From the IMG/VR virus record IMGVR_UViG_2531839179_000014: a stretch of 9,294 nt of DNA. One strand, 5' to 3'. The notes beneath the pieces were generated by a model. It searched no databases. It had not been told where the DNA came from and saw only the letters and a list, made by a program, of their open reading frames with translations. Made by a program: the position numbers and the translations under genes. Shown piece by piece: positions 976 through 8,553 of this stretch. Positions within the stretch are counted from its first letter, which is position 1. The number at the start of each line of letters is the position of its first letter. Origin of the DNA: a virus (lineage: Duplodnaviria; Heunggongvirae; Uroviricota; Caudoviricetes).

Positions 976-1231
976 TTAGAATTTACTGTCAGCACCGGCG
1001 TTAAAGTTTACTTCTGCGATCCTCAGAGTCCTTGGCAGCGGGGAACAAATGAGAACACAAATGGGCTAATTCGGCAGTACTTTCCTAAAAAGACATGTCT
1101 TGCCCAATATACTCAACATGAACTAGATCTGGTTGCTGCTCAGCTAAACAACAGACCGAGAAAGACACTGAAGTTCAAAACACCGAAAGAGATAATTGAA
1201 AGGGGTGTTGCATTGACAGATTGAATCTACA
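965..1231 (+). mobile_element. IS30 3' remnant including the right terminus
   Basis: Transposase stop at 1222-1224 is followed by TTGAATCTACA ending at 1231, the reverse complement of the IS30 terminal TGTAGATTCAA. The 5' ~1 kb of IS30 is absent. Confidence 0.8.
979..1224 (+). pseudogene. insI: IS30 transposase C-terminal fragment (last ~80 codons)
   Basis: Translation EFTVSTGVKVYFCDPQSPWQRGTNENTNGLIRQYFPKKTCLAQYTQHELDLVAAQLNNRPRKTLKFKTPKEIIERGVALTD* matches the C-terminus of IS30 InsI as recalled. There is no start codon or N-terminal part; sequence upstream of ~975 is unrelated. Confidence 0.85.
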
Positions 1232-2127
1232 ACAGCGTATTTTGCACAGGAGTCGCTGAAAAATACGCGTTAATCGAACAATGGCGACAACAATTTCCCA
1301 TTGAAGCGATGTGTCAGGTATTTGGTGTATCCAGGAGCGGTTATTACAACTGGGTACAGCATGAACCCTCAGACAGAAAACAAAGTGATGAGCGGCTAAA
1401 ACTGGAGATTAAGGTGGCACATATCCGCACTCGCGAAACATATGGAACCCGGCGGCTCCAGACGGAGCTGGCAGAGAATGGCATCATCGTTGGTCGTGAC
1501 CGACTGGCACGTCTTCGTAAGGAGCTAAGGCTACGCTGTAAGCAGAAACGCAAGTTCAGAGCGACTACGAACCCGAACCACAATCTGCCAGTTGCGCCAA
1601 ATCTGTTGAACCAGACGTTCGCTCCTACAGCACCAAATCAGGTCTGGGTGGCGGACCTGACGTATGTTGCCACACAGGAGGGATGGTTGTACCTCGCTGG
1701 CATCAAAGATGTTTATACGTGCGAAATTGTCGGCTACGCCATGGGAGAGCGCATGACAAAAGAGCTGACAGGTAAAGCCCTGTTTATGGCGCTCAGGAGC
1801 CAGCGCCCACCTGCCGGGCTAATCCACCACTCTGATCGAGGTTCACAGTACTGCGCATACGATTACCGGGTCATACAGGAGCAGTTTGGTCTGAAAACAT
1901 CAATGTCGCGTAAAGGTAACTGTTACGACAACGCTCCGATGGAAAGCTTCTGGGGAACGCTGAAAAATGAGAGCCTGAGCCACTATCGTTTTAATAACCG
2001 GGATGAAGCCATCTCAGTAATACGGGAATACATTGAGATTTTCTACAATCGTCAGCGTCGTCACTCTCGTCTGGGGAATATCTCCCCGGCAGCCTTCAGG
2101 GAAAAATATCATCAGATGGCTGCTTAA
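1232..2127 (+). pseudogene. IS3-family OrfB (DDE integrase-core transposase), 5'-truncated by the IS30 insertion
   Basis: Reading frame is open from the IS30 stop through ORF 1309-2127. Motifs WVADLTYV, HSDRGSQY and MSRKGNCYDNAPMESFWGTLKNE (DDE catalytic residues) and a C-terminal YNRQRRHSRLG are present. No orfA upstream. Confidence 0.85.
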
Positions 2128-2170
2128 AAAAAGAACAAATGGTAGTGTCCGCTATTGCCAGTACACCTCA
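1232..2170 (+). mobile_element. IS3-family element, 3' portion only (orfA and the orfA/orfB frameshift window are missing); right end approximate
   Basis: Begins immediately after the IS30 right terminus. OrfB stops at 2127; a candidate terminus ...CCAGTACACCTCA ends near 2170 (IS3-family ends are TG...CA). The arrangement resembles the IS911-interrupted-by-IS30 configuration known in E. coli K-12, but identity to IS911 is not verified. Confidence 0.6.
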
Positions 2171-2303
2171 TTTCGATATCCGGGACGCCAATCCCGACGC
2201 CAGATTTTGCTGGCGCGTGAGGAATATAGCCCCGGATTAACGTTGTCGTCAACAGCCACTACAGGCTAAACTAACAATATTCCCCAACAACGAAGGATTT
2301 AAC

Positions 2304-2591
2304 ATGGCTCAGGTCTATTTTGATACACTGAAGTTCGTCGAAACCTTGGAAGCCGCAGGAATGCCGGCAGCTCAGGCGCGCGCTATATCTGCCGCAGTGA
2401 AAGATTCTCACGAAGCCGCAGAAGTCGCCACAAAGCGCGACCTAAATGATGTCAGAACTGAACTAAAAAACGACATTGCAGCCCTTGATGCAAAAATAGA
2501 CAAACTCAGCCTGCAACTGACCGTCAGATTTGGTGGCATGCTCGTCGTTGCTGTTGGCGCACTGACAGCCATCATCAAATTACCTCTTTAA
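2304..2591 (+). CDS. Small coiled-coil protein with C-terminal transmembrane anchor (XhlA-like/DUF1640-like architecture)
   Basis: ORF 2304-2591 with SD AAGGA 6 nt upstream of ATG. N-terminal amphipathic region (DLNDVRTELKNDIAALDAKIDKLSLQL) followed by hydrophobic GGMLVVAVGALTAIIKL. Family assignment is from architecture only. Confidence 0.6.
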   Translation: MAQVYFDTLKFVETLEAAGMPAAQARAISAAVKDSHEAAEVATKRDLNDVRTELKNDIAALDAKIDKLSLQLTVRFGGMLVVAVGALTAIIKLPL

Positions 2592-2595
2592 ATTA

Positions 2596-2614
2596 CCAGC
2601 CCGTTCGGGGCTGG
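2596..2614. terminator. Bidirectional hairpin between convergent genes
   Basis: CCAGCCC-GTTCG-GGGCTGG (7-bp GC-rich stem) lies 5 bp after the + gene stop (2591) and 6 bp after the minus-strand peptide stop (2621). Flanking T/A tracts are short (TTTACC on +, TAATTTAAA on -), so intrinsic termination strength is uncertain. Confidence 0.5.
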
Positions 2615-2620
2615 TTTACC

Positions 2621-2704
2621 TTACCCCCAGCGGCAAATCGAATACACAACCAGCGCCACCGCCATTGCAATTCCTACCGTGGTGAATGCTTCAGGCCAGG
2701 TCAT
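2621..2704 (-). CDS. 27-aa hydrophobic peptide MTWPEAFTTVGIAMAVALVVYSICRWG (not in the supplied ORF track)
   Basis: ATG overlaps the stop of the upstream gene (ATGA at 2701-2704). SD GGAGGA lies 9 nt upstream. Single predicted transmembrane helix; ends 6 bp before the hairpin. Confidence 0.4.
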   Translation of the reverse strand: MTWPEAFTTVGIAMAVALVVYSICRWG

Positions 2705-3218
2705 CGTAAAACATCCTCCACGCTTATCAGTCCATTTCGCTTCAGGTAATCCATCGCCTTCTCCGGTAATTTGCAGTCAGGCTTAGCTTTTTTCAGTTGA
2801 CTGACCAGTCGTTTAACCCACATTGTTAATTCGCTAACCTGATTACTGGATGCTAGTAGGTTGTCGGCTTTACCCAGAATGACAGCACAGCAAGCCTCTT
2901 TGAGTACCCAGTCAACAGCGTCTTTCCATGCTCCTGTTTCGACTGGTGGATTCTCACGCTTTACCTGTTCATAAAAGCGCACGGCTTTAACCAGTCCTTC
3001 TGATGTCACCTGGACTGGCGGGGCAGTGAATAAGGCCTGAATTTCATAGTTCGGCCTGTCGTTACAATCCTCTTTTTTCGGTACATATTTCCAGTCACCA
3101 GACCACCACTTCCCCTGAAAGTCCGTAACGCCTTTTTTTTCACGTAGCGATATCGCCATGCCACTGTTTTTGCTTGCCCCGCCGTTTCATGCCCTTCCTG
3201 ATAATTAATCTCGCTCAT
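2701..3218 (-). CDS. Hypothetical protein (~175 aa if fused), interrupted by a frameshift at the T8/A8 run at 3133-3140
   Basis: ORF 3006-3218 (MSEINYQEGHETAGQAKTVAWRYRYVKKK...) starts by ATGA overlap with the upstream gene and has a GGGG SD. ORF 2701-3159 (..KGVTDFQGKWWSGDWKYVPKK...ISVEDVLR) continues in the -1 frame from the A8 run. One extra A would give a single ORF. No family recognised. Confidence 0.55.
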
Positions 3219-3391
3219 TCATCGCCCCACTCATCACAATATGCTTCGACCGGAGTTTTTCCTGCTTCATAATCATCACGCCATGCTTCAGCATCAGCAG
3301 CACTGCCACCACGTAACTCTGCATAGTCCATTAACAGTTCATGCCATTCTTCAAAACTGACGTTGTATTTAGTTGAACCAAAATCAGCCAT
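3215..3391 (-). CDS. 58-aa acidic protein MADFGSTKYNVSFEEWHELLMDYAELRGGSAADAEAWRDDYEAGKTPVEAYCDEWGDE (not in the supplied ORF track)
   Basis: ATG at 3391-3389 overlaps the stop of the upstream gene (ATGGCTGA) and its stop overlaps the next start (ATGA). Open frame with enterobacterial codon usage; D/E rich. Confidence 0.5.
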   Translation of the reverse strand: MADFGSTKYNVSFEEWHELLMDYAELRGGSAADAEAWRDDYEAGKTPVEAYCDEWGDE

Positions 3392-3566
3392 TTTGTTCTT
3401 CCTCTTCGTCTTTTATTTCGTGATATGAGTAATTGCAGTAGTTAAAGAAAATATCTTTTGCTTCGTCATGTATTTCATCAGGCGTCGCATCATCATCCAC
3501 TTCGAATTCATCCTCGAAATCTCCACCGGCTATTCCCGTTTCAATAATAATTTTGAACTTTCGCAT
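3384..3566 (-). CDS. 60-aa highly acidic protein MRKFKIIIETGIAGGDFEDEFEVDDDATPDEIHDEAKDIFFNYCNYSYHEIKDEEEEQNG
   Basis: Part of listed ORF 3384-3602. I place the start at the internal ATG (3566) because the upstream 36 nt run into the IS10-like terminal repeat. About one third of residues are D/E. First gene of a four-gene coupled series. Confidence 0.55.
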   Translation of the reverse strand: MRKFKIIIETGIAGGDFEDEFEVDDDATPDEIHDEAKDIFFNYCNYSYHEIKDEEEEQNG

Positions 3567-3577
3567 TTCACTACCGC

Positions 3578-3587
3578 CCTTTCGGGC
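3578..3587. repeat. Left copy of the direct repeat CCTTTCGGGC flanking the IS10-like element (target-site duplication)
   Basis: The identical 10-mer occurs at 4890-4899 immediately outside the other terminus. IS10-group elements make 9-bp duplications. Confidence 0.75.
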
Positions 3588-4889
3588 CTGAGGGATCCCC
3601 ACAAAATTACTGCTAATAAACCAACACCATATTTCGGTAGGTTCTGGACAGATGGTTTAGAACTGTGCTCAGTACTGTTCGTCTTAAAATAAGTGGCGAG
3701 TGTCGAAGAACATTCTTCGCTAACGTCAGATATGAGATAACCCGCCGGGATTTAATGCTGTTAGCCTGATATTTCAGGTGTAACCCTTTATTTTCAGCGT
3801 GATAACCGAGTAACCACATTACGATAGTGCTCAACGTTGCCAGCAGACTCAGAACCAGAATTCTTCCTGTTGAACGACTTTTGCTGGCCCGAAGACCAAA
3901 TCCGAAGCGCCCGTTCTTTTCATCACGAAAGTTTTGCTCTATCTGCATTCGCCGACTGTATAACTTGATGATTTCTCGCGCTCTGAAGTCATTTGTACTG
4001 CTGAAGATCAACCAGGCTTCTTTTGCTGATTTGCTCTGTTCTTTGTCTGTTTTGTTTAAACCACTCTGACCTTTCGAACGTTTCTTTTTTCGCCCTTTTG
4101 CCGATTTCTTATAGGTGTAAAAATGCCCCCGGATGCTTTTTTTCCTTTCTTTAACCAGCCTTCCAGCCCCCATATATTCCGGTGTTTTACATTCAGGGCT
4201 ATCCGACACTTTTTAACCATCTTTCAGGCGCGTTATCGAGGCAATACTGAACGTTATTTCTGATCCGACCAATAAAATCCCAGCCCAGAGAAGTAATATG
4301 GTGAAACCATGCGCTCTGAAATCCAGCATCCGTGACAATAATAACCCTGGCATCGGGGGGCAGGGATTGAGCAAGGGAATCAAGGAAATCATGTTGTATC
4401 AATGGATTATTTTGTTTTTCAGAAGGAACAACCTTACTCAATAACGGAATGGAACGCCCGTCACACAGAAGGCTGGCACGAAGAACATGATGCTCCTGGG
4501 AGGGATAGCCACTCCAGTCTACGGCTATTACACATAAAGATAACTGCCGTGTCAGCATTGAAGTGATATTCCTGAAAATCATTGGAATATCGCGATGGAG
4601 CGCCTCATTACCCATGAGGCGATCAATACGTTTGCTCTTATTCTTAACTTGTGCATTACCCGGCAAAAAACGTCCGATACTGGTCAGCGTCAGAGATGCT
4701 CCGTTGATTAACACCACTGTGGCATCCATCAGGGCATTTTGTCGGTACTGATGAAATGGTGCTAAGGCATCCCGGAAGAAATTCTGACATACTTTATGAA
4801 CAGGCATAGCAGTGATCTCATTGAATTGTTGGCACAAATCAGTAGATCACATAATGCTATGTCTGTCTCGTTTTCTGGGAATTCCTCAG
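3588..4889 (-). mobile_element. IS10-like insertion sequence (IS4 family), ~1.3 kb, apparently complete
   Basis: Left end CTGAGGGATCCCCACAAAATTACTG (3588-3612) resembles the IS10 inside end as recalled; right end read on minus from 4889 is CTGAGGAATTCCCAGAAAACGAGAC. The two ends match at 17 of 22 positions. GATC sites sit in the left terminus (3594-3597) and near the transposase start (4814-4817, 4845-4848). Confidence 0.85.
3613..4837 (-). pseudogene. IS10-like transposase, split by a frameshift near the A5/T5 run at 4210-4214
   Basis: N-part (ORF 4199-4837) has KRIDRLMGNEALH, IAVDWSGY, VLRASLLCDGRSIP, VIIVTDAGFQSAWF, LGW. C-part (ORF 3613-4209) has the IS4-family YREK signature YSRRMQIEQNFRDEK. 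Both are collinear with IS10 transposase as recalled. The start may be TTG at 4837 or ATG at 4807. Confidence 0.8.
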
Positions 4890-4971: not shown

Positions 4972-5328
4972 TTATTCAGTTCTGGATTTTGTCGCCCTGC
5001 GTATCCGCGCTTTCGCGTTACGCTCAATCTGTATCAGCTTTTCTATATTTCTCCGCCTTTCCTGTTCCTCCTGGCGCAATAGCCTTACATCATCTGCCAG
5101 TCTGGTTTCTCTTTTTGCCACAGAGAGCATCCAGTCAAACGGCTCCACAACCGCACCGCAGATTTTACAGCGGACCTGACGCTCTTTTTCGTCAACCCGT
5201 ACAGAGGCGTGATGGCAATATGGTCTTTCCGATGGCTCATAAAGAAAATTAACCTGATTACGAGGGCCATCCTCTTTTATCGGAAATAAAACGATATTGC
5301 TTAACTCATCTTCTGGGTTTATTTCCAT
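4972..5328 (-). CDS. Hypothetical protein with Cys/His cluster and basic coiled-coil tail (possible zinc-ribbon regulator)
   Basis: Inside listed ORF 4972-5385. I prefer the ATG at 5328 (MEINPEDEL...) because it has a strong SD AAGGAGAGGAG, whereas the ATG at 5385 directly abuts the upstream stop. Contains YCHH...(15)...CKIC and a C-terminal R/E-rich helix. Confidence 0.55.
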   Translation of the reverse strand: MEINPEDELSNIVLFPIKEDGPRNQVNFLYEPSERPYCHHASVRVDEKERQVRCKICGAVVEPFDWMLSVAKRETRLADDVRLLRQEEQERRRNIEKLIQIERNAKARIRRATKSRTE

Positions 5329-5385
5329 GCTCCTCTCCTTTGATGCGAATGCCAGCGGTAATTGAAGCCTGATAGCTAATTTCAT

Positions 5386-5808
5386 TCACAGTATCGCCTC
5401 CTGAAAATTACCCTGATAGAAAGCCAGTACACGCTGCATAGCTTCGCTCTTCCGGCACTCGCGACAGATTATATTCAGGCGCCTGTCGTAGCGACGTATT
5501 TCTCCGTCAGGTAATGACCAGATAAGGTCCGGATCAACAACAACCGGTTTCCTCACCTTTACTCTCGAGAGTTTTTTGCGGGCGCTTTGCCAGTCCTTGC
5601 GAGCCTGTTCAGACGGGAATAAGCCGTAGCCAGAATTATATACATCACCACTTGCGACCAGTTCTATGCATAAGCGACCGACAGACGCACGACTGATACC
5701 TGTTTCATCGGACAACTGCCGAATCGTGACCCGACCGTCCTGATGCACGAGTTCCACAATTCGCGTCTTCAGTTCTTCCCGCTGTTCGGGAGTAAAAGGT
5801 TTCGCCAT
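5386..5808 (-). CDS. Hypothetical phage protein with N-terminal winged-HTH-like region
   Basis: ORF 5386-5808 with SD AGGAGG 4 nt upstream of ATG. N-terminal VTIRQLSDETGISRASVGRLCIELV resembles an HTH; the C-terminal half is unassigned. Confidence 0.6.
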   Translation of the reverse strand: MAKPFTPEQREELKTRIVELVHQDGRVTIRQLSDETGISRASVGRLCIELVASGDVYNSGYGLFPSEQARKDWQSARKKLSRVKVRKPVVVDPDLIWSLPDGEIRRYDRRLNIICRECRKSEAMQRVLAFYQGNFQEAIL

Positions 5809-5822
5809 AAATCCTCCTGAAA

Positions 5823-6569
5823 CTACTTAACAACCCTCGAATGGCTAACATCCGGACGCCAGCTCTCCCAGTTAAAATTCACCCAGCGCCCGCCGTTCAT
5901 GACCATGCGATCCATCACCCGCTCGCCGAGCAATGTTTTCATCACCTCATAGTTCAGGTTTGTCAGCATCCCCACGCTGCGCATCGACGCTGTCCGGCGA
6001 TCAACAATCTGGTGCAGCACCACCTGCTCGTTTTTCGTCTCGCGCTGAATGCCAATTTCATCAAGAACCAGCAGATCCACTTCGCACAGCTCCCGCAAAA
6101 ATTTTTCGCCTGACTGCCCGTCGTCATAGCTGGCGTGCAGGGCGCTCATAACATCAGCCACGGTAACCACAATCACTGTCTGACCGTCTTTCAGCAGGCG
6201 ATTCCCGATAGCTGCCGCTAAGTGATTCTTCCCGGTACCAGGTTTTCCGCTGAACGCAAAATTTGTACACCCGGTCATCAGTTCATCGGCGATGGATTTC
6301 GCCTGGCTTAACGCGTATCGCTGGCCGTCGTTCTGCACCTGGTAATTCGCAAACGAGCATTTACGGTGCAACGGCTGGATGCCTGAGCGATTCAGAATTT
6401 TTTCCACCCGCAACTGGCGATTCAGGCGGTTGATCTCCTCGCTACGTTTCTGGCCTTCAGCAAGTTGCCACTCGCGCCACTCCGCTACCGTTCTGAATGG
6501 GGCGGTTACATGTGGCGGGGTCAGTCGGCGGATGCGTTCCAGAACGCCGCCTGTCGCAATATTTTTCAT
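5823..6569 (-). CDS. DnaC/IstB-like AAA+ helicase loader (phage replication protein)
   Basis: Walker A GKPGTGKNHLAAAIG and Walker B LLVLDEIG are present. Sits immediately downstream of the O-like gene, as in lambdoid and Rac-type replication modules. Confidence 0.85.
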   Translation of the reverse strand: MKNIATGGVLERIRRLTPPHVTAPFRTVAEWREWQLAEGQKRSEEINRLNRQLRVEKILNRSGIQPLHRKCSFANYQVQNDGQRYALSQAKSIADELMTGCTNFAFSGKPGTGKNHLAAAIGNRLLKDGQTVIVVTVADVMSALHASYDDGQSGEKFLRELCEVDLLVLDEIGIQRETKNEQVVLHQIVDRRTASMRSVGMLTNLNYEVMKTLLGERVMDRMVMNGGRWVNFNWESWRPDVSHSRVVK

Positions 6570-6575
6570 GGTCCG

Positions 6576-7359
6576 TTACCCCCTGAAGCCTGGCGGGATC
6601 GCACTGTCCGGCAACGAGACGGTGTTAACCTGTCGGAGCAACGTCTCAGGCCGAACACCTTTCGGCGCGAACAGGCCCTGGTATTCATTGGCGATGCTGT
6701 GTCGAATCACCTGCTCAGGTGTAAAACCCTGCTGACGGAATTTTTCCAGTTCCCGTATCGCCCCGTTAGCGCCCTGCTCCGTTCGAATCGGTTTTCGCAA
6801 TGCCTGTCTGAACCGGACCCACTCATGCCAGAGTGTTTCCGGCAACCAATCGGGCAGCTCAATAGCCTCCGGCTCGAATTTTTTAGACGCTCGTTTTTGG
6901 CGAGGGGGATTTAGGGGGAGATCTGTATTTAGATCTTCCTCTTCCTCTGGTAACGCTTTTTGATCCGTTTGTGTAACGCTGGCAGCGTTACCTTTTCGTT
7001 TCAGTTCGCGTATTTTTGTTACTCGCTCGTTTGTAACCGCCCGTTTTTTTAGAGCTTTTTCCGTTATGACGTTCAAAGTTAGGTAGAGAAAGCCCACCGT
7101 CATTTTCGACCAGCCATCCAACCTGAATTAACGCATCAGCAAAACCAGACATAAAAGTGATGCGATCTATTGCACTTTTTGTAACGCCGCGAGCGTTACA
7201 ATCTGCATTACCGTCTATCATTTGTTGATCCGCCCATGCCCAGAAGCGAATAACCTTCCCTAATGCGGCATCTGGATCAATATTCAGAATCTCAGCAAGC
7301 CTGAATATTTCCGGCTTATCCGGCGTAATAACCTCGAGCTTTATCCAGTTTGAAGCCAT
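6576..7359 (-). CDS. Replication initiator/replisome organizer (lambda O-like, YdaU-like), interrupted by a frameshift at the T7/A7 run at 7044-7050
   Basis: N-part ORF 6988-7359 (MASNWIKLEVITPDKPEIFRLAEIL...LPNFERHNGKSSKK) and C-part ORF 6576-7121 (...RAVTNERVTKIRELKRKG...LPDWLPETLWHEWVRFRQALRKP...) overlap at 6988-7121 in different frames. Removing one A from the A7 run fuses them into ~260 aa. Position is between the YdaT-like and DnaC-like genes. Confidence 0.6.
6972..6992. repeat. 21-bp palindrome, copy 3 (GTAACGCT-ggc-AGCGTTAC), inside the O-like coding region
   Basis: Perfect 8-bp arms. It is one of three related palindromes in this region. Confidence 0.7.
7180..7200. repeat. 21-bp palindrome, copy 2 (TGTAACGC-cgcga-GCGTTACA), inside the O-like coding region
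   Basis: Perfect 8-bp arms; differs at one base from copy 1. Confidence 0.7.
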
Positions 7360-7446: not shown

Positions 7447-7858
7447 ACGACAGAATCGCCGGGCGACCCACCACCGCTGAAATGTGCTTTCCGGTAAACG
7501 GCCTGGACAGCATCATCATGCGCATCAATTGCCGTACTCAACGCTTCCTGCGCCGCCAGTAATGCACGGCGTTCCAGGGTATCGAAGATACAGAGTCGGT
7601 GACGCAGCTCACGCGGAAGAATTGCCAGAACCGCAGGGATCAGTTTCTGAATTTTTCCCTTTGCGCTTTCGTTTCACCTTTCAACCAACGGTGATAGATA
7701 TTCTGCTGATTGTTCCAGTCCTTGCCTGGTACCAGAGACAATTCGCCGCCCCCCTGCCGCAGATATTCTTCAGTAATTGCGTTAGCGACCCACGCCTGCC
7801 CTTTTTCGGCTGCCAGGGCTAACAGCACTGATTCGATGTGCTCATGCCTGATTTTCAT
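7447..7858 (-). CDS. YdaT-like protein (CII-like regulator or putative toxin family), interrupted by a frameshift at the T5/A5 run at 7652-7656
   Basis: ORF 7640-7858 (MKIRHEHIESVLLALAAEKGQAWVANAITEEYLRQGGGELSLVPGKDWNNQQNIYHRWLKGETKAQREK) continues in another frame as IQKLIPAVLAILPRELRHRLCIFDTLERRALLAAQEALSTAIDAHDDAVQAVYRKAHFSGGGSPGDSVVVH*, ending at 7447. One extra A would restore ~140 aa. Start overlaps the dicC-like stop. Confidence 0.6.
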
Positions 7859-8069
7859 GAATCACCTTCCCAGGTCGTTTTGCCTTACGATATTCGTCAT
7901 AAACTTTGGGGTCGTACTGAAGTTCCCCGCCAGATGCCTCTTGCAGGCGCATCGCGCGACCTTCAGGAACCAGTTCCCCCCATGCAGCAATGCTTGCCAG
8001 CCTAACTCCTGCGGCATTGGCAAGCTTTGTTTTGCTGCCAAAAAACGCTATAGCATCAATTTTCAACAT
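7842..8069 (-). CDS. dicC: Cro-type small DNA-binding protein, DicC/YdaS-like
   Basis: 75-aa ORF divergent from the DicA-like repressor, with strong SD AAGGAG 6 nt upstream. Its size and divergent position match DicC; assigning it to the YdaS/DicC-type Cro-like family is from recollection. Confidence 0.75.
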   Translation of the reverse strand: MLKIDAIAFFGSKTKLANAAGVRLASIAAWGELVPEGRAMRLQEASGGELQYDPKVYDEYRKAKRPGKVIHENQA

Positions 8070-8145: not shown

Positions 8146-8553
8146 ATGAAAAACGAAACCTTCGGTGCTCGCCTCTTACATAGGCGTAAAAAATTAAAAC
8201 TGTCTCAGGCCGCATTAGGTAAGCTGGTCAAAGTGGCTCACGTAACAATTTCTCAATGGGAAAGAGATGAAACACAGCCGGCGGGGAAAAGATTATTCGC
8301 ACTGAGCCAAGCGCTTCAGTGCTCACCGACTTGGCTTCTTTTTGGGGATGAAGATAAACAACCAGGCGAACCGATCCCGGATAATCAGCCAGCCATTCTG
8401 ACAGAAGATCAAAAAGAGTTACTTCAACTGTTCGACGCACTGCCTGAGTCAGAGCAAAAGGCCCTGTTGTCAGAGATGCGTGCTCGAGTTGAAAATTTCA
8501 ACAAACTTTTTGAAGAACTACTCAAAGCTCGCAAAAGAAGCGCAAACAAATAA
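8146..8553 (+). CDS. dicA: DicA-like XRE-family HTH repressor (no C-terminal peptidase domain)
   Basis: 135 aa. N-terminal HTH LSQAALGKLVKVAHVTISQWERDETQP. Blocks LFALSQALQCSPTWLLFGDEDKQP, ALPESEQ and MRARVENFNKLFEELLKARKR match E. coli DicA as recalled. Confidence 0.8.
   Translation: MKNETFGARLLHRRKKLKLSQAALGKLVKVAHVTISQWERDETQPAGKRLFALSQALQCSPTWLLFGDEDKQPGEPIPDNQPAILTEDQKELLQLFDALPESEQKALLSEMRARVENFNKLFEELLKARKRSANK

What the first reader, a model, noticed from the sequence alone, without database searches (positions are those of the whole stretch)
2621..2704. Unlisted 27-aa hydrophobic peptide gene with its own SD and ATGA coupling
MTWPEAFTTVGIAMAVALVVYSICRWG is below the size cutoff of the ORF track, but it has a GGAGGA SD 9 nt upstream, starts on the stop codon of the preceding gene and ends 6 bp before a GC-rich hairpin. 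Its composition fits a single transmembrane helix, like many small membrane-active toxins and regulatory peptides.
Basis: seen in the sequence. Interest (0 to 1): 0.45.

Follow-up and report, generated by a model that had tools for sequence, protein, structure and literature searches.

The report
Conserved unannotated phage membrane micro-protein gene
The 27-codon reading frame is a real, strongly conserved gene for a tiny membrane-spanning peptide, present in about 30% of complete E. coli genomes inside lambda-like (including Shiga-toxin) and P1-like phages, almost never annotated, and of unknown function.

Summary
On the minus strand, ATG 2704-2702 overlaps the TGA stop of the upstream 152-aa gene. 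GGAGGA lies 9 nt upstream, the TAA stop is at 2623-2621, and an 8-bp GC-rich hairpin starts 5 nt later.

- The 84-nt ORF plus its ribosome-binding site recurs as a discrete block in 1637 of 5426 complete E. coli genomes and in more than 120 viral contigs.
- It sits behind at least 19 unrelated upstream contexts and in front of 24 downstream contexts.
- Identity among contexts is about 0.35-0.4 in the flanks, 0.83 over the SD and 0.7-1.0 in the ORF. It falls to 0.36 right after the stop.
- Of about 205 copies, about 7 are damaged.
- Substitutions are enriched for synonymous changes (54 versus 46, with 26% expected; p = 1e-9).
- Length variants (23, 24 and 30 aa) are also hydrophobic.

The consensus is M-[TSN]-W-P-[ED]-A-...-G-...-A-x-A-...-Y-S-x-C-R-W-G, which fits one transmembrane helix.

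No Pfam, NCBIfam, PHROG, PADLOC or Rfam family matches, and no paper was found. It is absent from lambda and from the four K-12 lambdoid prophages checked. The function is untested. I infer a helix-packing modulator of a membrane protein rather than a type I toxin.

The parts
2621..2704 (-). 27-codon gene for the micro-protein MTWPEAFTTVGIAMAVALVVYSICRWG. It has one predicted transmembrane helix at residues ~6-24. E5 is on the N side and R25 on the C side.
   Evidence: ORF coordinates. Conservation as a block that matches the ORF exactly. Frame integrity: 132 of 140 5'-anchored matches are 27 aa, and ~7 of ~205 copies are damaged. pN/pS is 0.34. Along a spanning tree there are 54 synonymous and 46 non-synonymous changes against 26% synonymous expected, p = 1.3e-9. 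Hydropathy and residue conservation.
2714..2719 (-). Shine-Dalgarno sequence GGAGGA, 9 nt before the ATG, embedded in the last codons of the upstream gene.
   Evidence: All 19 distinct upstream contexts carry a GGAGG-, GGAGGT- or GAGGTG-type motif about 6-9 nt before the start. Mean pairwise identity at -12..-7 is 0.83, against ~0.4 further upstream.
2701..3159 (-). Upstream 152-aa early gene of unknown function (phrog_660). Its TGA stop (2703-2701) overlaps the ATG of the small gene (ATGA), which is the geometry of translational coupling.
   Evidence: In the public records inspected, the annotated upstream CDS ends 1 or 4 nt into the small ORF, although the upstream genes differ (phrog_660-like, DUF551, Ea22, EaA, others).
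2595..2615 (.). 8-bp GC-rich hairpin between the small gene and the convergent 95-aa gene (2304-2591, + strand). It may be a weak bidirectional terminator. It belongs to this particular downstream context, not to the conserved block.
   Evidence: fold; not called as a terminator. Homology to most E. coli prophages stops at 2617-2621, before the hairpin. The same downstream sequence accompanies only 3 of the 5'-anchored copies, the window's own among them.

Best explanation
This is a genuine protein-coding gene. It encodes a 27-residue, single-pass inner-membrane micro-protein that belongs to the accessory gene pool of lambdoid and P1-like enterobacterial phages.

It has no promoter of its own. 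It is the distal cistron of a phage operon. In this window that is the DicC/Cro-side early operon of a defective Rac/Qin-like prophage. In other phages it lies in the exo-xis region in front of xis-int, or in an ea22/DUF551 gene string in front of hok/sok.

Ribosomes finishing the upstream gene at TGA re-initiate at the overlapping ATG, helped by a strong SD inside the upstream gene's last codons. The peptide is therefore made whenever that operon is transcribed, that is, after infection or induction.

The peptide would insert with its short acidic N-terminus (MTWPE) outside and its CRWG end in the cytoplasm.

Shown: existence of the ORF, purifying selection on it, the coupling geometry, its modular mobility and its hydrophobic helix character.

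Inferred (about 45% of my belief): it works by packing its helix against a host or phage inner-membrane protein and altering that protein's activity, in the manner of small membrane-protein regulators. The helix has an invariant Gly11 and near-invariant Ala15 and Ala17 (a small-xxx-small face), flanked by aromatic belts W3 and Y21/W26. I consider non-specific membrane damage less likely.
For: - Block conservation. A 125-nt query hits 1698 records in 1637 of 5426 complete E. coli genomes. Many alignments cover exactly ATG to stop (query 27-110) behind a different upstream gene. With the 1.5-kb query, homology begins at the ORF's stop.
- Protein-level conservation. tblastn finds the peptide in 94 phage records at 59-100% identity, after Ea22, EaA, DUF551 or hypothetical genes.
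- Identity profile over 78 distinct contexts: flanks 0.33-0.43, SD 0.83, ORF 0.68-1.0, and 0.36 immediately after the stop.
- Frame integrity. When only codons 1-11 are used as the anchor, 132 of 140 matches are 27 aa. The others are 23-, 24- and 30-aa variants that are also hydrophobic, plus one truncation and one contig run-off.
- Coding substitution pattern. In codons 12-27, which the search pattern did not constrain, pN/pS is 0.34, against 1.3-2.0 in the other sense frames. Along a spanning tree there are 54 synonymous and 46 non-synonymous single changes with 26% synonymous expected, p = 1.3e-9.
- Translation signals. An SD is present in all 19 upstream contexts. An overlapping stop/start is seen in every annotated record inspected.
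- Hydropathy and invariant residues.
- Some annotators have independently called the same 27-aa product.
- Operon context in the window.
- Exo-xis genes are expressed at the earliest stage of lytic development (abstract of PMC8614690, seen).
Against: - There is no direct evidence of translation. The peptide was not found in the supplements of an EHEC Sakai Ribo-seq study or of an Enterobacteriaceae intergenic-smORF survey. It is absent from lambda and from the four K-12 lambdoid prophages checked (Rac, Qin, DLP12, e14), so the best Ribo-seq data sets cannot speak to it.
- The antisense frame that shares wobble positions shows an equally low pN/pS (0.29) and is mostly open. The substitution test alone therefore does not fix the strand. 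The strand rests on the start, SD and stop, and on the lack of any consistent antisense start.
- Most loci come from pattern scans that fixed parts of codons 1-11, and in one scan the last two codons as well. This inflates apparent conservation at those positions.
- Many copies are closely related, so the counts are not independent events.
- Nothing identifies a binding partner, so the functional part is inference only.
Confidence: 0.82

Rival explanations
1. The peptide is a membrane-damaging toxin of the type I toxin kind (Hok/Gef, TisB, DinQ, Ibs/ShoB-like). It would depolarise the inner membrane when the operon is switched on, for example to arrest the host or as an abortive or addiction function.
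For: - Its size, hydrophobicity and single helix are those of such toxins.
- 43 of the 5'-anchored copies lie directly upstream of a hok/sok locus.
- Another copy is next to a toxin-antitoxin pair.
Against: - The conserved block starts only ~14 nt before the ATG, so it has no promoter of its own.
- No promoter-like site on the opposite strand near the ORF in the window.
- No Rfam antitoxin RNA.
- No match to Hok or any other Pfam/NCBIfam toxin family.
- A strong, unmasked SD with coupling is the opposite of the tightly repressed translation of type I toxins.
- From general knowledge of lambda lysis, early depolarisation would trigger holins prematurely.
- The hok/sok neighbour is only one of 24 downstream contexts.
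Confidence: 0.12
2. The conserved 84-100 nt is a non-coding element, and the open frame is incidental. It could be a recombination 'linker' at mosaic joints, an RNA element or part of a terminator. A variant of this view is that only the act of translating it matters (ribosome coverage at the operon end) and the peptide itself is irrelevant.
For: - Lambdoid mosaic joints are known to coincide with short conserved sequences (general knowledge).
- The 5' part (TGGCCTGAAGCATT) is conserved even at some synonymous sites. For example, codon 4 is always CCT.
- The block often ends an operon.
Against: - Variation is concentrated at third codon positions: 71 changes against 31 and 25 at positions 1 and 2.
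- pN/pS is 0.34 only in this frame and its wobble-sharing antisense frame.
- The stop codon position is fixed and identity collapses right after it.
- Variants with quite different 3' halves and lengths still encode hydrophobic helices.
- Amino-acid replacements stay within I/V/L/M/A/F.
- No Rfam family matches.
- Only ~3% of copies are disrupted.
Confidence: 0.04
3. The real gene is on the opposite strand, in the antisense frame that shares wobble positions, as RefSeq annotates over the pseudogenised copy in Shigella phage POCJ13.
For: - That frame has pN/pS 0.29 and is stop-free across the block in 50 of 51 unique sequences.
- A 42-aa antisense CDS is annotated in POCJ13.
Against: - Most loci have either no ATG/GTG/TTG in that frame, or none before block position 58-61. 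Both its start and its stop fall at inconsistent places in the variable flanks.
- In the window the first start is GTG 2679, which overlaps only 26 nt of the block.
- An open, low-pN/pS antisense frame is the expected mirror image of a hydrophobic sense ORF.
Confidence: 0.02

Closest known systems
Small single-pass inner-membrane regulatory proteins of enterobacteria (KdpF, AcrZ, MgtS, MgtR, CydX/AppX, PmrR)
   Same: - It is under 50 aa and consists of one hydrophobic helix with very short termini.
- It has an interfacial aromatic belt and a small-residue face suited to helix-helix packing.
- This is the mode of action I propose. The properties of these proteins are from general knowledge.
   Different: - There is no detectable homology. 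The best match is a sub-threshold 12-residue hit to KdpF (E = 0.024, 14.7 bits against a cutoff of 26.85).
- It is phage-borne and modular.
- It is expressed by coupling at the end of phage operons rather than from a host regulon.
Type I toxin-antitoxin toxins (Hok/Gef family PF01848; TisB, DinQ, Ibs, ShoB)
   Same: - Similar size and hydrophobicity.
- It is frequently a physical neighbour of hok/sok loci in prophages.
   Different: - No Hok/Gef profile match.
- No promoter of its own, and no antisense promoter or antitoxin RNA detected.
- A strong exposed SD and translational coupling, rather than translational silencing.
Exo-xis region accessory genes of lambda and Stx phages (orf60a, orf61, orf63, orf73, ea22, ea8.5)
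   Same: - Many copies lie in this region, directly after ea22/DUF551-type genes and before xis-int.
- They are therefore presumably co-expressed very early (PMC8614690 abstract).
- Like those genes, it is non-essential, mosaic accessory cargo.
   Different: - The known exo-xis genes are annotated, and the paper that models them searches negative for 'transmembrane'. This one is a membrane peptide and goes unmentioned there.
- It is absent from lambda itself.
- It also occurs outside that region, including the early-right operon in this window.
Prophage small proteins that act on inner-membrane proteins to exclude superinfecting phage (DicB acting on ManYZ/FhuA-dependent entry; HK97 gp15)
   Same: They are small prophage products whose targets are inner-membrane proteins (title and abstract of PMC6832061; HK97 gp15 from general knowledge). 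This is a plausible functional analogue.
   Different: - No sequence similarity was detected in PHROGs or Pfam.
- Exclusion proteins expressed from a resident prophage need expression in the lysogen. This gene has no promoter of its own and sits in operons that are repressed in lysogens.

Membership tests
Protein-coding gene (as opposed to a chance ORF) | The reading frame, start and stop are preserved in diverged homologues | tested here: met
   With only codons 1-11 anchored, 132 of 140 matches are 27 aa. The rest are 23-, 24- and 30-aa hydrophobic variants, one truncation and one run-off. About 7 of ~205 copies are damaged.
Protein-coding gene (as opposed to a chance ORF) | An excess of synonymous over non-synonymous change in this frame | tested here: met
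   pN/pS is 0.34, against 1.3-2.0 in the other sense frames. There are 54 synonymous and 46 non-synonymous changes with 26% synonymous expected, p = 1.3e-9. The wobble-sharing antisense frame scores the same; it is excluded because it has no consistent start.
Protein-coding gene (as opposed to a chance ORF) | Direct evidence of translation (Ribo-seq, mass spectrometry or tagging) | not testable with these tools
   The peptide was not found in the supplements of PMC5597208 or PMC11188072. It is absent from lambda and from the four K-12 lambdoid prophages checked.
Translationally coupled distal cistron | The start codon overlaps or abuts the upstream stop, with an SD inside the upstream coding sequence | tested here: met
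   ATGA in the window. ATGA or TGATG overlaps in the public records inspected. An SD is present in all 19 upstream contexts.
Type I toxin-antitoxin system | An overlapping or adjacent antisense RNA antitoxin with its own promoter | tested here: not met
   No promoter-like site on the opposite strand around 2600-2720. No Rfam match. Conservation does not extend beyond SD-to-stop, so no conserved flanking RNA gene exists.
Type I toxin-antitoxin system | An independent toxin transcript with repressed translation | tested here: not met
   The block begins ~14 nt before the ATG, inside diverse upstream genes. The SD is strong and exposed.
Hok/Gef family (PF01848) | Match to the family profile | tested here: not met
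   No Hok/Gef hit at E <= 10 for five variants. The genuine hokD/hokW genes are separate genes downstream in other loci.
Moron (autonomous lysogenic-conversion cassette) | Its own promoter and terminator flanking the gene | tested here: not met
   No conserved upstream non-coding DNA and no promoter. Terminator-like hairpins follow only some copies, and in 46 copies another gene starts 4-8 nt later.
Holin / lysis cassette protein | Location next to endolysin and spanin genes in the late operon | tested here: not met
   The copies inspected lie in early or accessory regions: after replication genes, in the exo-xis region, or before hok/sok.
Single-pass membrane micro-protein | A hydrophobic stretch of about 17-20 residues able to span the bilayer, kept across variants | tested here: met
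   The best 17-residue Kyte-Doolittle mean is 2.11 in the window peptide and 1.5-2.8 in the 23-, 24- and 30-aa variants. Replacements stay within I/V/L/M/A/F. Actual membrane insertion and topology were not tested.
Any curated protein family (Pfam, NCBIfam, PHROGs, PADLOC) | A significant profile match | tested here: not met
   Best hits: KdpF E = 0.024, DUF883_C E = 0.042, phrog_4612 E = 0.019, all far below the cutoffs. PADLOC gave none.

The most novel reading that the evidence does not exclude
The peptide is a dedicated early-phase effector. Through its transmembrane helix it would disable a specific host inner-membrane machine. Candidates are a membrane-anchored anti-phage defence effector, a DNA-entry or transport protein, or the FtsH/HflKC system that sets the lysis-lysogeny decision. 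That would make it an unrecognised contributor to the phenotypes so far attributed to annotated exo-xis genes such as ea22 in Shiga-toxin phages.
Probability: 0.15. Interest if true: 0.7.

Novelty: new member of a known kind. Interest (0 to 1): 0.5.

Why it matters
- **Prevalence.** The gene is present in about 30% of complete E. coli genomes, with up to 7 copies per genome. Carriers include Stx1 and Stx2 phages such as 933W, VT1-Sakai and VT2-Sakai.
- **Annotation gap.** RefSeq and most phage records omit it or mislabel it. PGAP calls fragments 'DUF551 domain-containing protein, partial', and one RefSeq phage record annotates the antisense strand instead.
- **Experimental confound.** It overlaps the stop codon of ea22/DUF551-type genes. 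Deletions, clones and over-expression constructs of those exo-xis genes may therefore have unknowingly included or destroyed it.
- **A defined target.** It offers a clean, conserved, 27-residue example for studying phage membrane micro-proteins. The function of this class is largely unexplored.
- **A method.** Mosaic-block boundaries that match an ORF exactly can be used to validate ORFs too short for gene finders.

Tried and rejected
- **Length limits.** I worked around this with degenerate DNA patterns and with a 40-aa in-frame translation that includes 13 upstream codons.
- **A wasted scan.** One viral scan used a pattern with one N too many.
- **Genome contigs pattern scan.** Real hits came only from E. 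coli and Shigella flexneri representatives. The other 27 were chance matches of other lengths in unrelated taxa.
- **Curated families.** Nothing significant in Pfam, NCBIfam, PHROGs or PADLOC.
- **Rfam.** Only a chance-level hit (DUF2815 RNA, E = 0.57) over the hairpin.
- **Literature.** No paper contains the peptide strings. The peptide is not in the supplements of the EHEC Sakai Ribo-seq paper or the Enterobacteriaceae intergenic-smORF survey. A review-type modelling paper on exo-xis proteins does not mention a transmembrane ORF.
- **K-12 homologue.** I looked for a named homologue in Rac, Qin, DLP12 and e14 and found none. There is none in lambda either.
- **Fusion to DUF551 proteins.** The clustering of the peptide with 121- and 185-aa DUF551 proteins suggested a fusion. 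Their sequences end at ...PEPPQEVNQ and do not contain the peptide, so the clustering is an artefact.
- **Programmed -1 frameshift.** I considered a frameshift that would fuse the helix to the upstream protein. I rejected it because no shared slippery site is apparent in the sequences displayed (no formal scan was run), the upstream genes are unrelated, and every context has an SD plus ATG or GTG.
- **Antisense gene.** Considered and rejected.
- **Closest genomes.** The annotation of the closest genomes added nothing about the ORF.
- **Structure prediction.** Not attempted. The peptide is under the 30-aa limit, and a lone helix would not be informative.

Full report
**1. What is in the window**

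The feature lies on the minus strand.
- The ORF runs from ATG 2704-2702 to TAA 2623-2621 and encodes MTWPEAFTTVGIAMAVALVVYSICRWG.
- The preceding 152-aa ORF (3159..2701) ends with TGA 2703-2701, so the two genes share ATGA.
- GGAGGA sits at 2719-2714, 9 nt before the ATG.
- Five nucleotides after the stop, an 8-bp GC-rich hairpin (2615-2595) separates the ORF from a convergent 95-aa gene on the plus strand (2304-2591).
- The hairpin folds at -21 kcal/mol together with its flanks, but it is only marginally better than shuffles (z = -1.6). The consensus scan does not call it a terminator.
- In the window, 88 ORFs are 20-50 aa long. Three have an SD-like 5-mer, and only this one starts with ATG. 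The local signals are suggestive but not decisive.

**2. Genomic setting**

The window is a defective lambdoid prophage of the Rac/Qin type. Reading from the immunity region:
- a DicA-like repressor (8146-8553, +) and a DicC-like Cro (7842-8069, -);
- then, all on the minus strand, a frameshifted replication initiator (6576-7359), a YdaV/DnaC-like ATPase (5823-6569), DUF977 (5386-5808) and phrog_1621 (4972-5385);
- an inserted, frameshifted IS4-family transposase (3613-4837);
- DUF7167 (3384-3602), phrog_519 (3215-3391), phrog_660 (2701-3159) and finally the small ORF.

An IS600 copy lies beyond the convergent gene. The small ORF is therefore the last cistron of the Cro-side early operon.

**3. 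Conservation as a discrete block**

- A 1.5-kb query around the ORF matches E. coli prophages only from window position 2617 or 2621 onward, which is from the ORF's stop codon.
- A 125-nt query (query position 27 is the A of ATG, position 110 the last base of the stop) hits 1698 records in 1637 of 5426 complete E. coli genomes, with up to 7 places per genome.
- Many of those alignments span exactly positions 27-110 while the annotated upstream gene differs (DUF551, eaa). Others span 1-110 and stop at the stop codon.
- tblastn finds the peptide in 94 phage records at 59-100% identity. They include 933W, VT1-Sakai, VT2-Sakai, BP-4795, Min27, ArgO145 and the P1-like phage SJ46.
- In the public records I inspected, none annotates the ORF on this strand. 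The annotated upstream CDS ends 1 or 4 nt into it.
- The neighbourhoods differ:
  - after replication and nin-type genes, before hokD;
  - after L0139, before sokW/hokW in 933W;
  - after ea22/DUF551 genes, before xis-int, that is, in the exo-xis region;
  - before a convergent toxin-antitoxin pair.

**4. A larger sample**

- Degenerate DNA patterns retrieved more than 120 viral contigs.
- Among species-representative genomes, only E. coli and Shigella flexneri gave real hits.
- With only codons 1-11 as the anchor, 140 matches resolve as follows:
  - 132 ORFs of 27 aa;
  - 3 of 24 aa (MSWPEAFAIVGVAMAIAAIFIFWG, P1-like);
  - 2 of 23 aa (MNWPDAFLYVGIAWAFAYAITRI);
  - 1 of 30 aa (MTWPEALVVVGVNFAMFGFLTILVWRMWKV);
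  - 1 truncation and 1 contig run-off.
- tblastn over all fetched loci finds about 205 copies. The damaged ones are a nonsense codon (POCJ13), a 1-nt deletion, a truncation, and four P1-like copies with ATA in place of ATG.
- The copies sit behind 19 distinct upstream sequence clusters. Every cluster has a GGAGG-type SD about 6-9 nt before the start.
- They sit in front of 24 downstream clusters: the hok/sok leader (43 copies), a DUF4222 gene starting 4-8 nt later (46 copies), various hairpins and others.
- Mean pairwise identity over 78 distinct contexts is 0.33-0.43 upstream, 0.83 at -12..-7, 0.68-1.0 through the ORF and 0.36 in the first six bases after the stop.

The conserved unit is therefore SD plus ORF and nothing more.

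**5. Coding test**

- In codons 12-27, which no search pattern constrained, pooled pN/pS is 0.34 in the ORF's frame and 1.3-2.0 in the other sense frames.
- Along a minimum spanning tree of 51 unique sequences, single-base codon changes are 54 synonymous and 46 non-synonymous. Only 26% would be synonymous by chance (p = 1.3e-9). Changes by codon position are 31, 25 and 71.
- The antisense frame that shares wobble positions scores equally well and is open, as expected for the mirror image of a hydrophobic ORF.
- That antisense frame has no consistent start or stop. In most loci the first ATG/GTG/TTG is absent or lies at block position 58-61. In the window it is GTG 2679. I reject it.

**6. The product**

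Among 32 distinct 27-aa sequences:
- M1, W3, P4, A6, G11 and W26 are invariant;
- E/D5, A15, A17, Y/F21, S22, C24 and R25 are nearly so;
- the remaining positions exchange I, V, L, M, A, F and T.

The part of G11's invariance that comes from the search pattern is checked by the tblastn-derived intact copies, which all have G11. Residues ~6-24 form a 19-residue hydrophobic segment; the best 17-residue Kyte-Doolittle mean is 2.11. The only charges are E5 and R25. By the positive-inside rule this predicts N-out, C-in (inference). G11-xxx-A15 and A13-xxx-A17 form a small-residue face, flanked by aromatic residues at both interfaces. This pattern is typical of helices that pack against other transmembrane helices (general knowledge; inference here).

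**7. Comparison with what is known**

- No Pfam, NCBIfam, PHROG or PADLOC family matches. The best hits are sub-threshold: KdpF E = 0.024, DUF883_C E = 0.042, phrog_4612 E = 0.019.
- No Rfam family matches.
- The exact peptide does exist in public protein sets, called sporadically as 'bacteriophage protein', 'prophage protein' or 'hypothetical protein'. PGAP names fragments 'DUF551 domain-containing protein, partial'. Sources are E. coli, E. albertii, Shigella and Salmonella. The sequence is therefore not unseen, but it has no family and no assigned function.
- No paper contains it. It is not in the supplements of two relevant small-ORF studies. A paper modelling all exo-xis proteins of lambda and Stx phages mentions no transmembrane ORF.
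- It is absent from lambda and from K-12 Rac, Qin, DLP12 and e14. This explains why the classic Ribo-seq data sets never flagged it.

**8. Mechanism**

Shown:
- a conserved coding sequence under purifying selection;
- no conserved promoter;
- a strong SD and an overlapping stop/start in every context;
- position as a distal cistron of early or accessory phage operons.

Inferred:
- The peptide is made by coupled re-initiation whenever the operon is transcribed, which is after infection or induction. Exo-xis genes are among the earliest expressed (PMC8614690 abstract).
- It inserts into the inner membrane.
- It acts by binding a membrane protein through its helix.

I prefer this to a pore-forming or depolarising toxin for four reasons.
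- The tested defining features of type I toxin loci were not found.
- The SD is strong and unmasked.
- Both termini carry sequence-specific invariant residues.
- Early depolarisation would prematurely trigger holin-dependent lysis (general knowledge).

The toxin reading is not excluded (about 0.12). The non-coding and antisense readings are unlikely (about 0.04 and 0.02).

**9. Verdict**

The ORF is a real, widespread, essentially unannotated micro-protein gene of lambdoid and P1-like coliphages. It is a new, uncharacterised family within the known class of small phage membrane proteins.

It is not a surprise in kind. It is a well-supported and prevalent example in medically relevant phages. 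It also overlaps genes (ea22/DUF551) that are being studied experimentally without awareness of it.

Noticed in passing
P0012, P0017 and related entries: NCBI's pipeline names fragments of the small peptide (for example GGESMTWPEAF...CRWG) 'DUF551 domain-containing protein, partial'. The peptide is a separate ORF downstream of DUF551 genes and contains no DUF551 domain. In the 90% clusters, the peptide is also grouped with full-length DUF551 proteins that do not contain it.
   Followed up: partly
L008 (Shigella phage POCJ13) 1501-1634: The small ORF is a pseudogene here, with TGG changed to TAG at codon 3. RefSeq instead annotates a 42-aa CDS on the opposite strand across it. That CDS is probably spurious.
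   Followed up: partly
L010, L048, L086, L153 (P1-like phage-plasmids such as Salmonella phage SJ46): These carry a 24-aa variant, MSWPEAFAIVGVAMAIAAIFIFWG, with the next gene starting 2 nt after its stop. Four copies have ATA instead of ATG. It is unclear whether those are dead or use a weak start.
   Followed up: partly
window 3613-4837 (-) and about 1230-2250 (+): There are two insertion sequences. One is an IS4-family transposase split by a frameshift into 212-aa and 198-aa ORFs, inserted inside the early operon. The other is an IS600 (IS3-family) copy beyond the convergent gene. The prophage is clearly decaying, a pattern typical of Shigella-like genomes.
   Followed up: partly
window 6576-7359 (-): The replication-initiator gene is split into two overlapping ORFs (123 aa and 181 aa) that match the N- and C-terminal halves of phrog_2509. 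This is a likely frameshift pseudogene.
   Followed up: no
window 2304-2591 (+): This convergent 95-aa gene (phrog_17872) has a weak CCDC90/DUF1640-like N-terminus (E = 6.6e-7, below the cutoff) and a hydrophobic C-terminal tail (FGGMLVVAVGALTAIIKL). It is a tail-anchored coiled-coil protein of unknown function. Together with the hairpin, it replaces the hok/sok region found in most relatives.
   Followed up: no
L003 (933W) 2578-2750; L001 3386-4000; 43 viral loci: In the commonest context the small ORF's stop lies about 45 nt upstream of the sequence corresponding to the 5' end of the hok mRNA. Read-through from the upstream operon would then run into the hok/sok locus. Whether that has regulatory consequences is unknown.
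   Followed up: no
All copies, codon 2 and codon 4: Codon 2 always starts with A (Thr, Ser or Asn), which preserves the upstream TGA in the ATGA overlap. This holds even in contexts where the upstream stop is placed differently. Codon 4 is always CCT. This suggests an extra constraint on the first ~20 nt beyond the amino-acid sequence, perhaps related to initiation efficiency or recombination.
   Followed up: no
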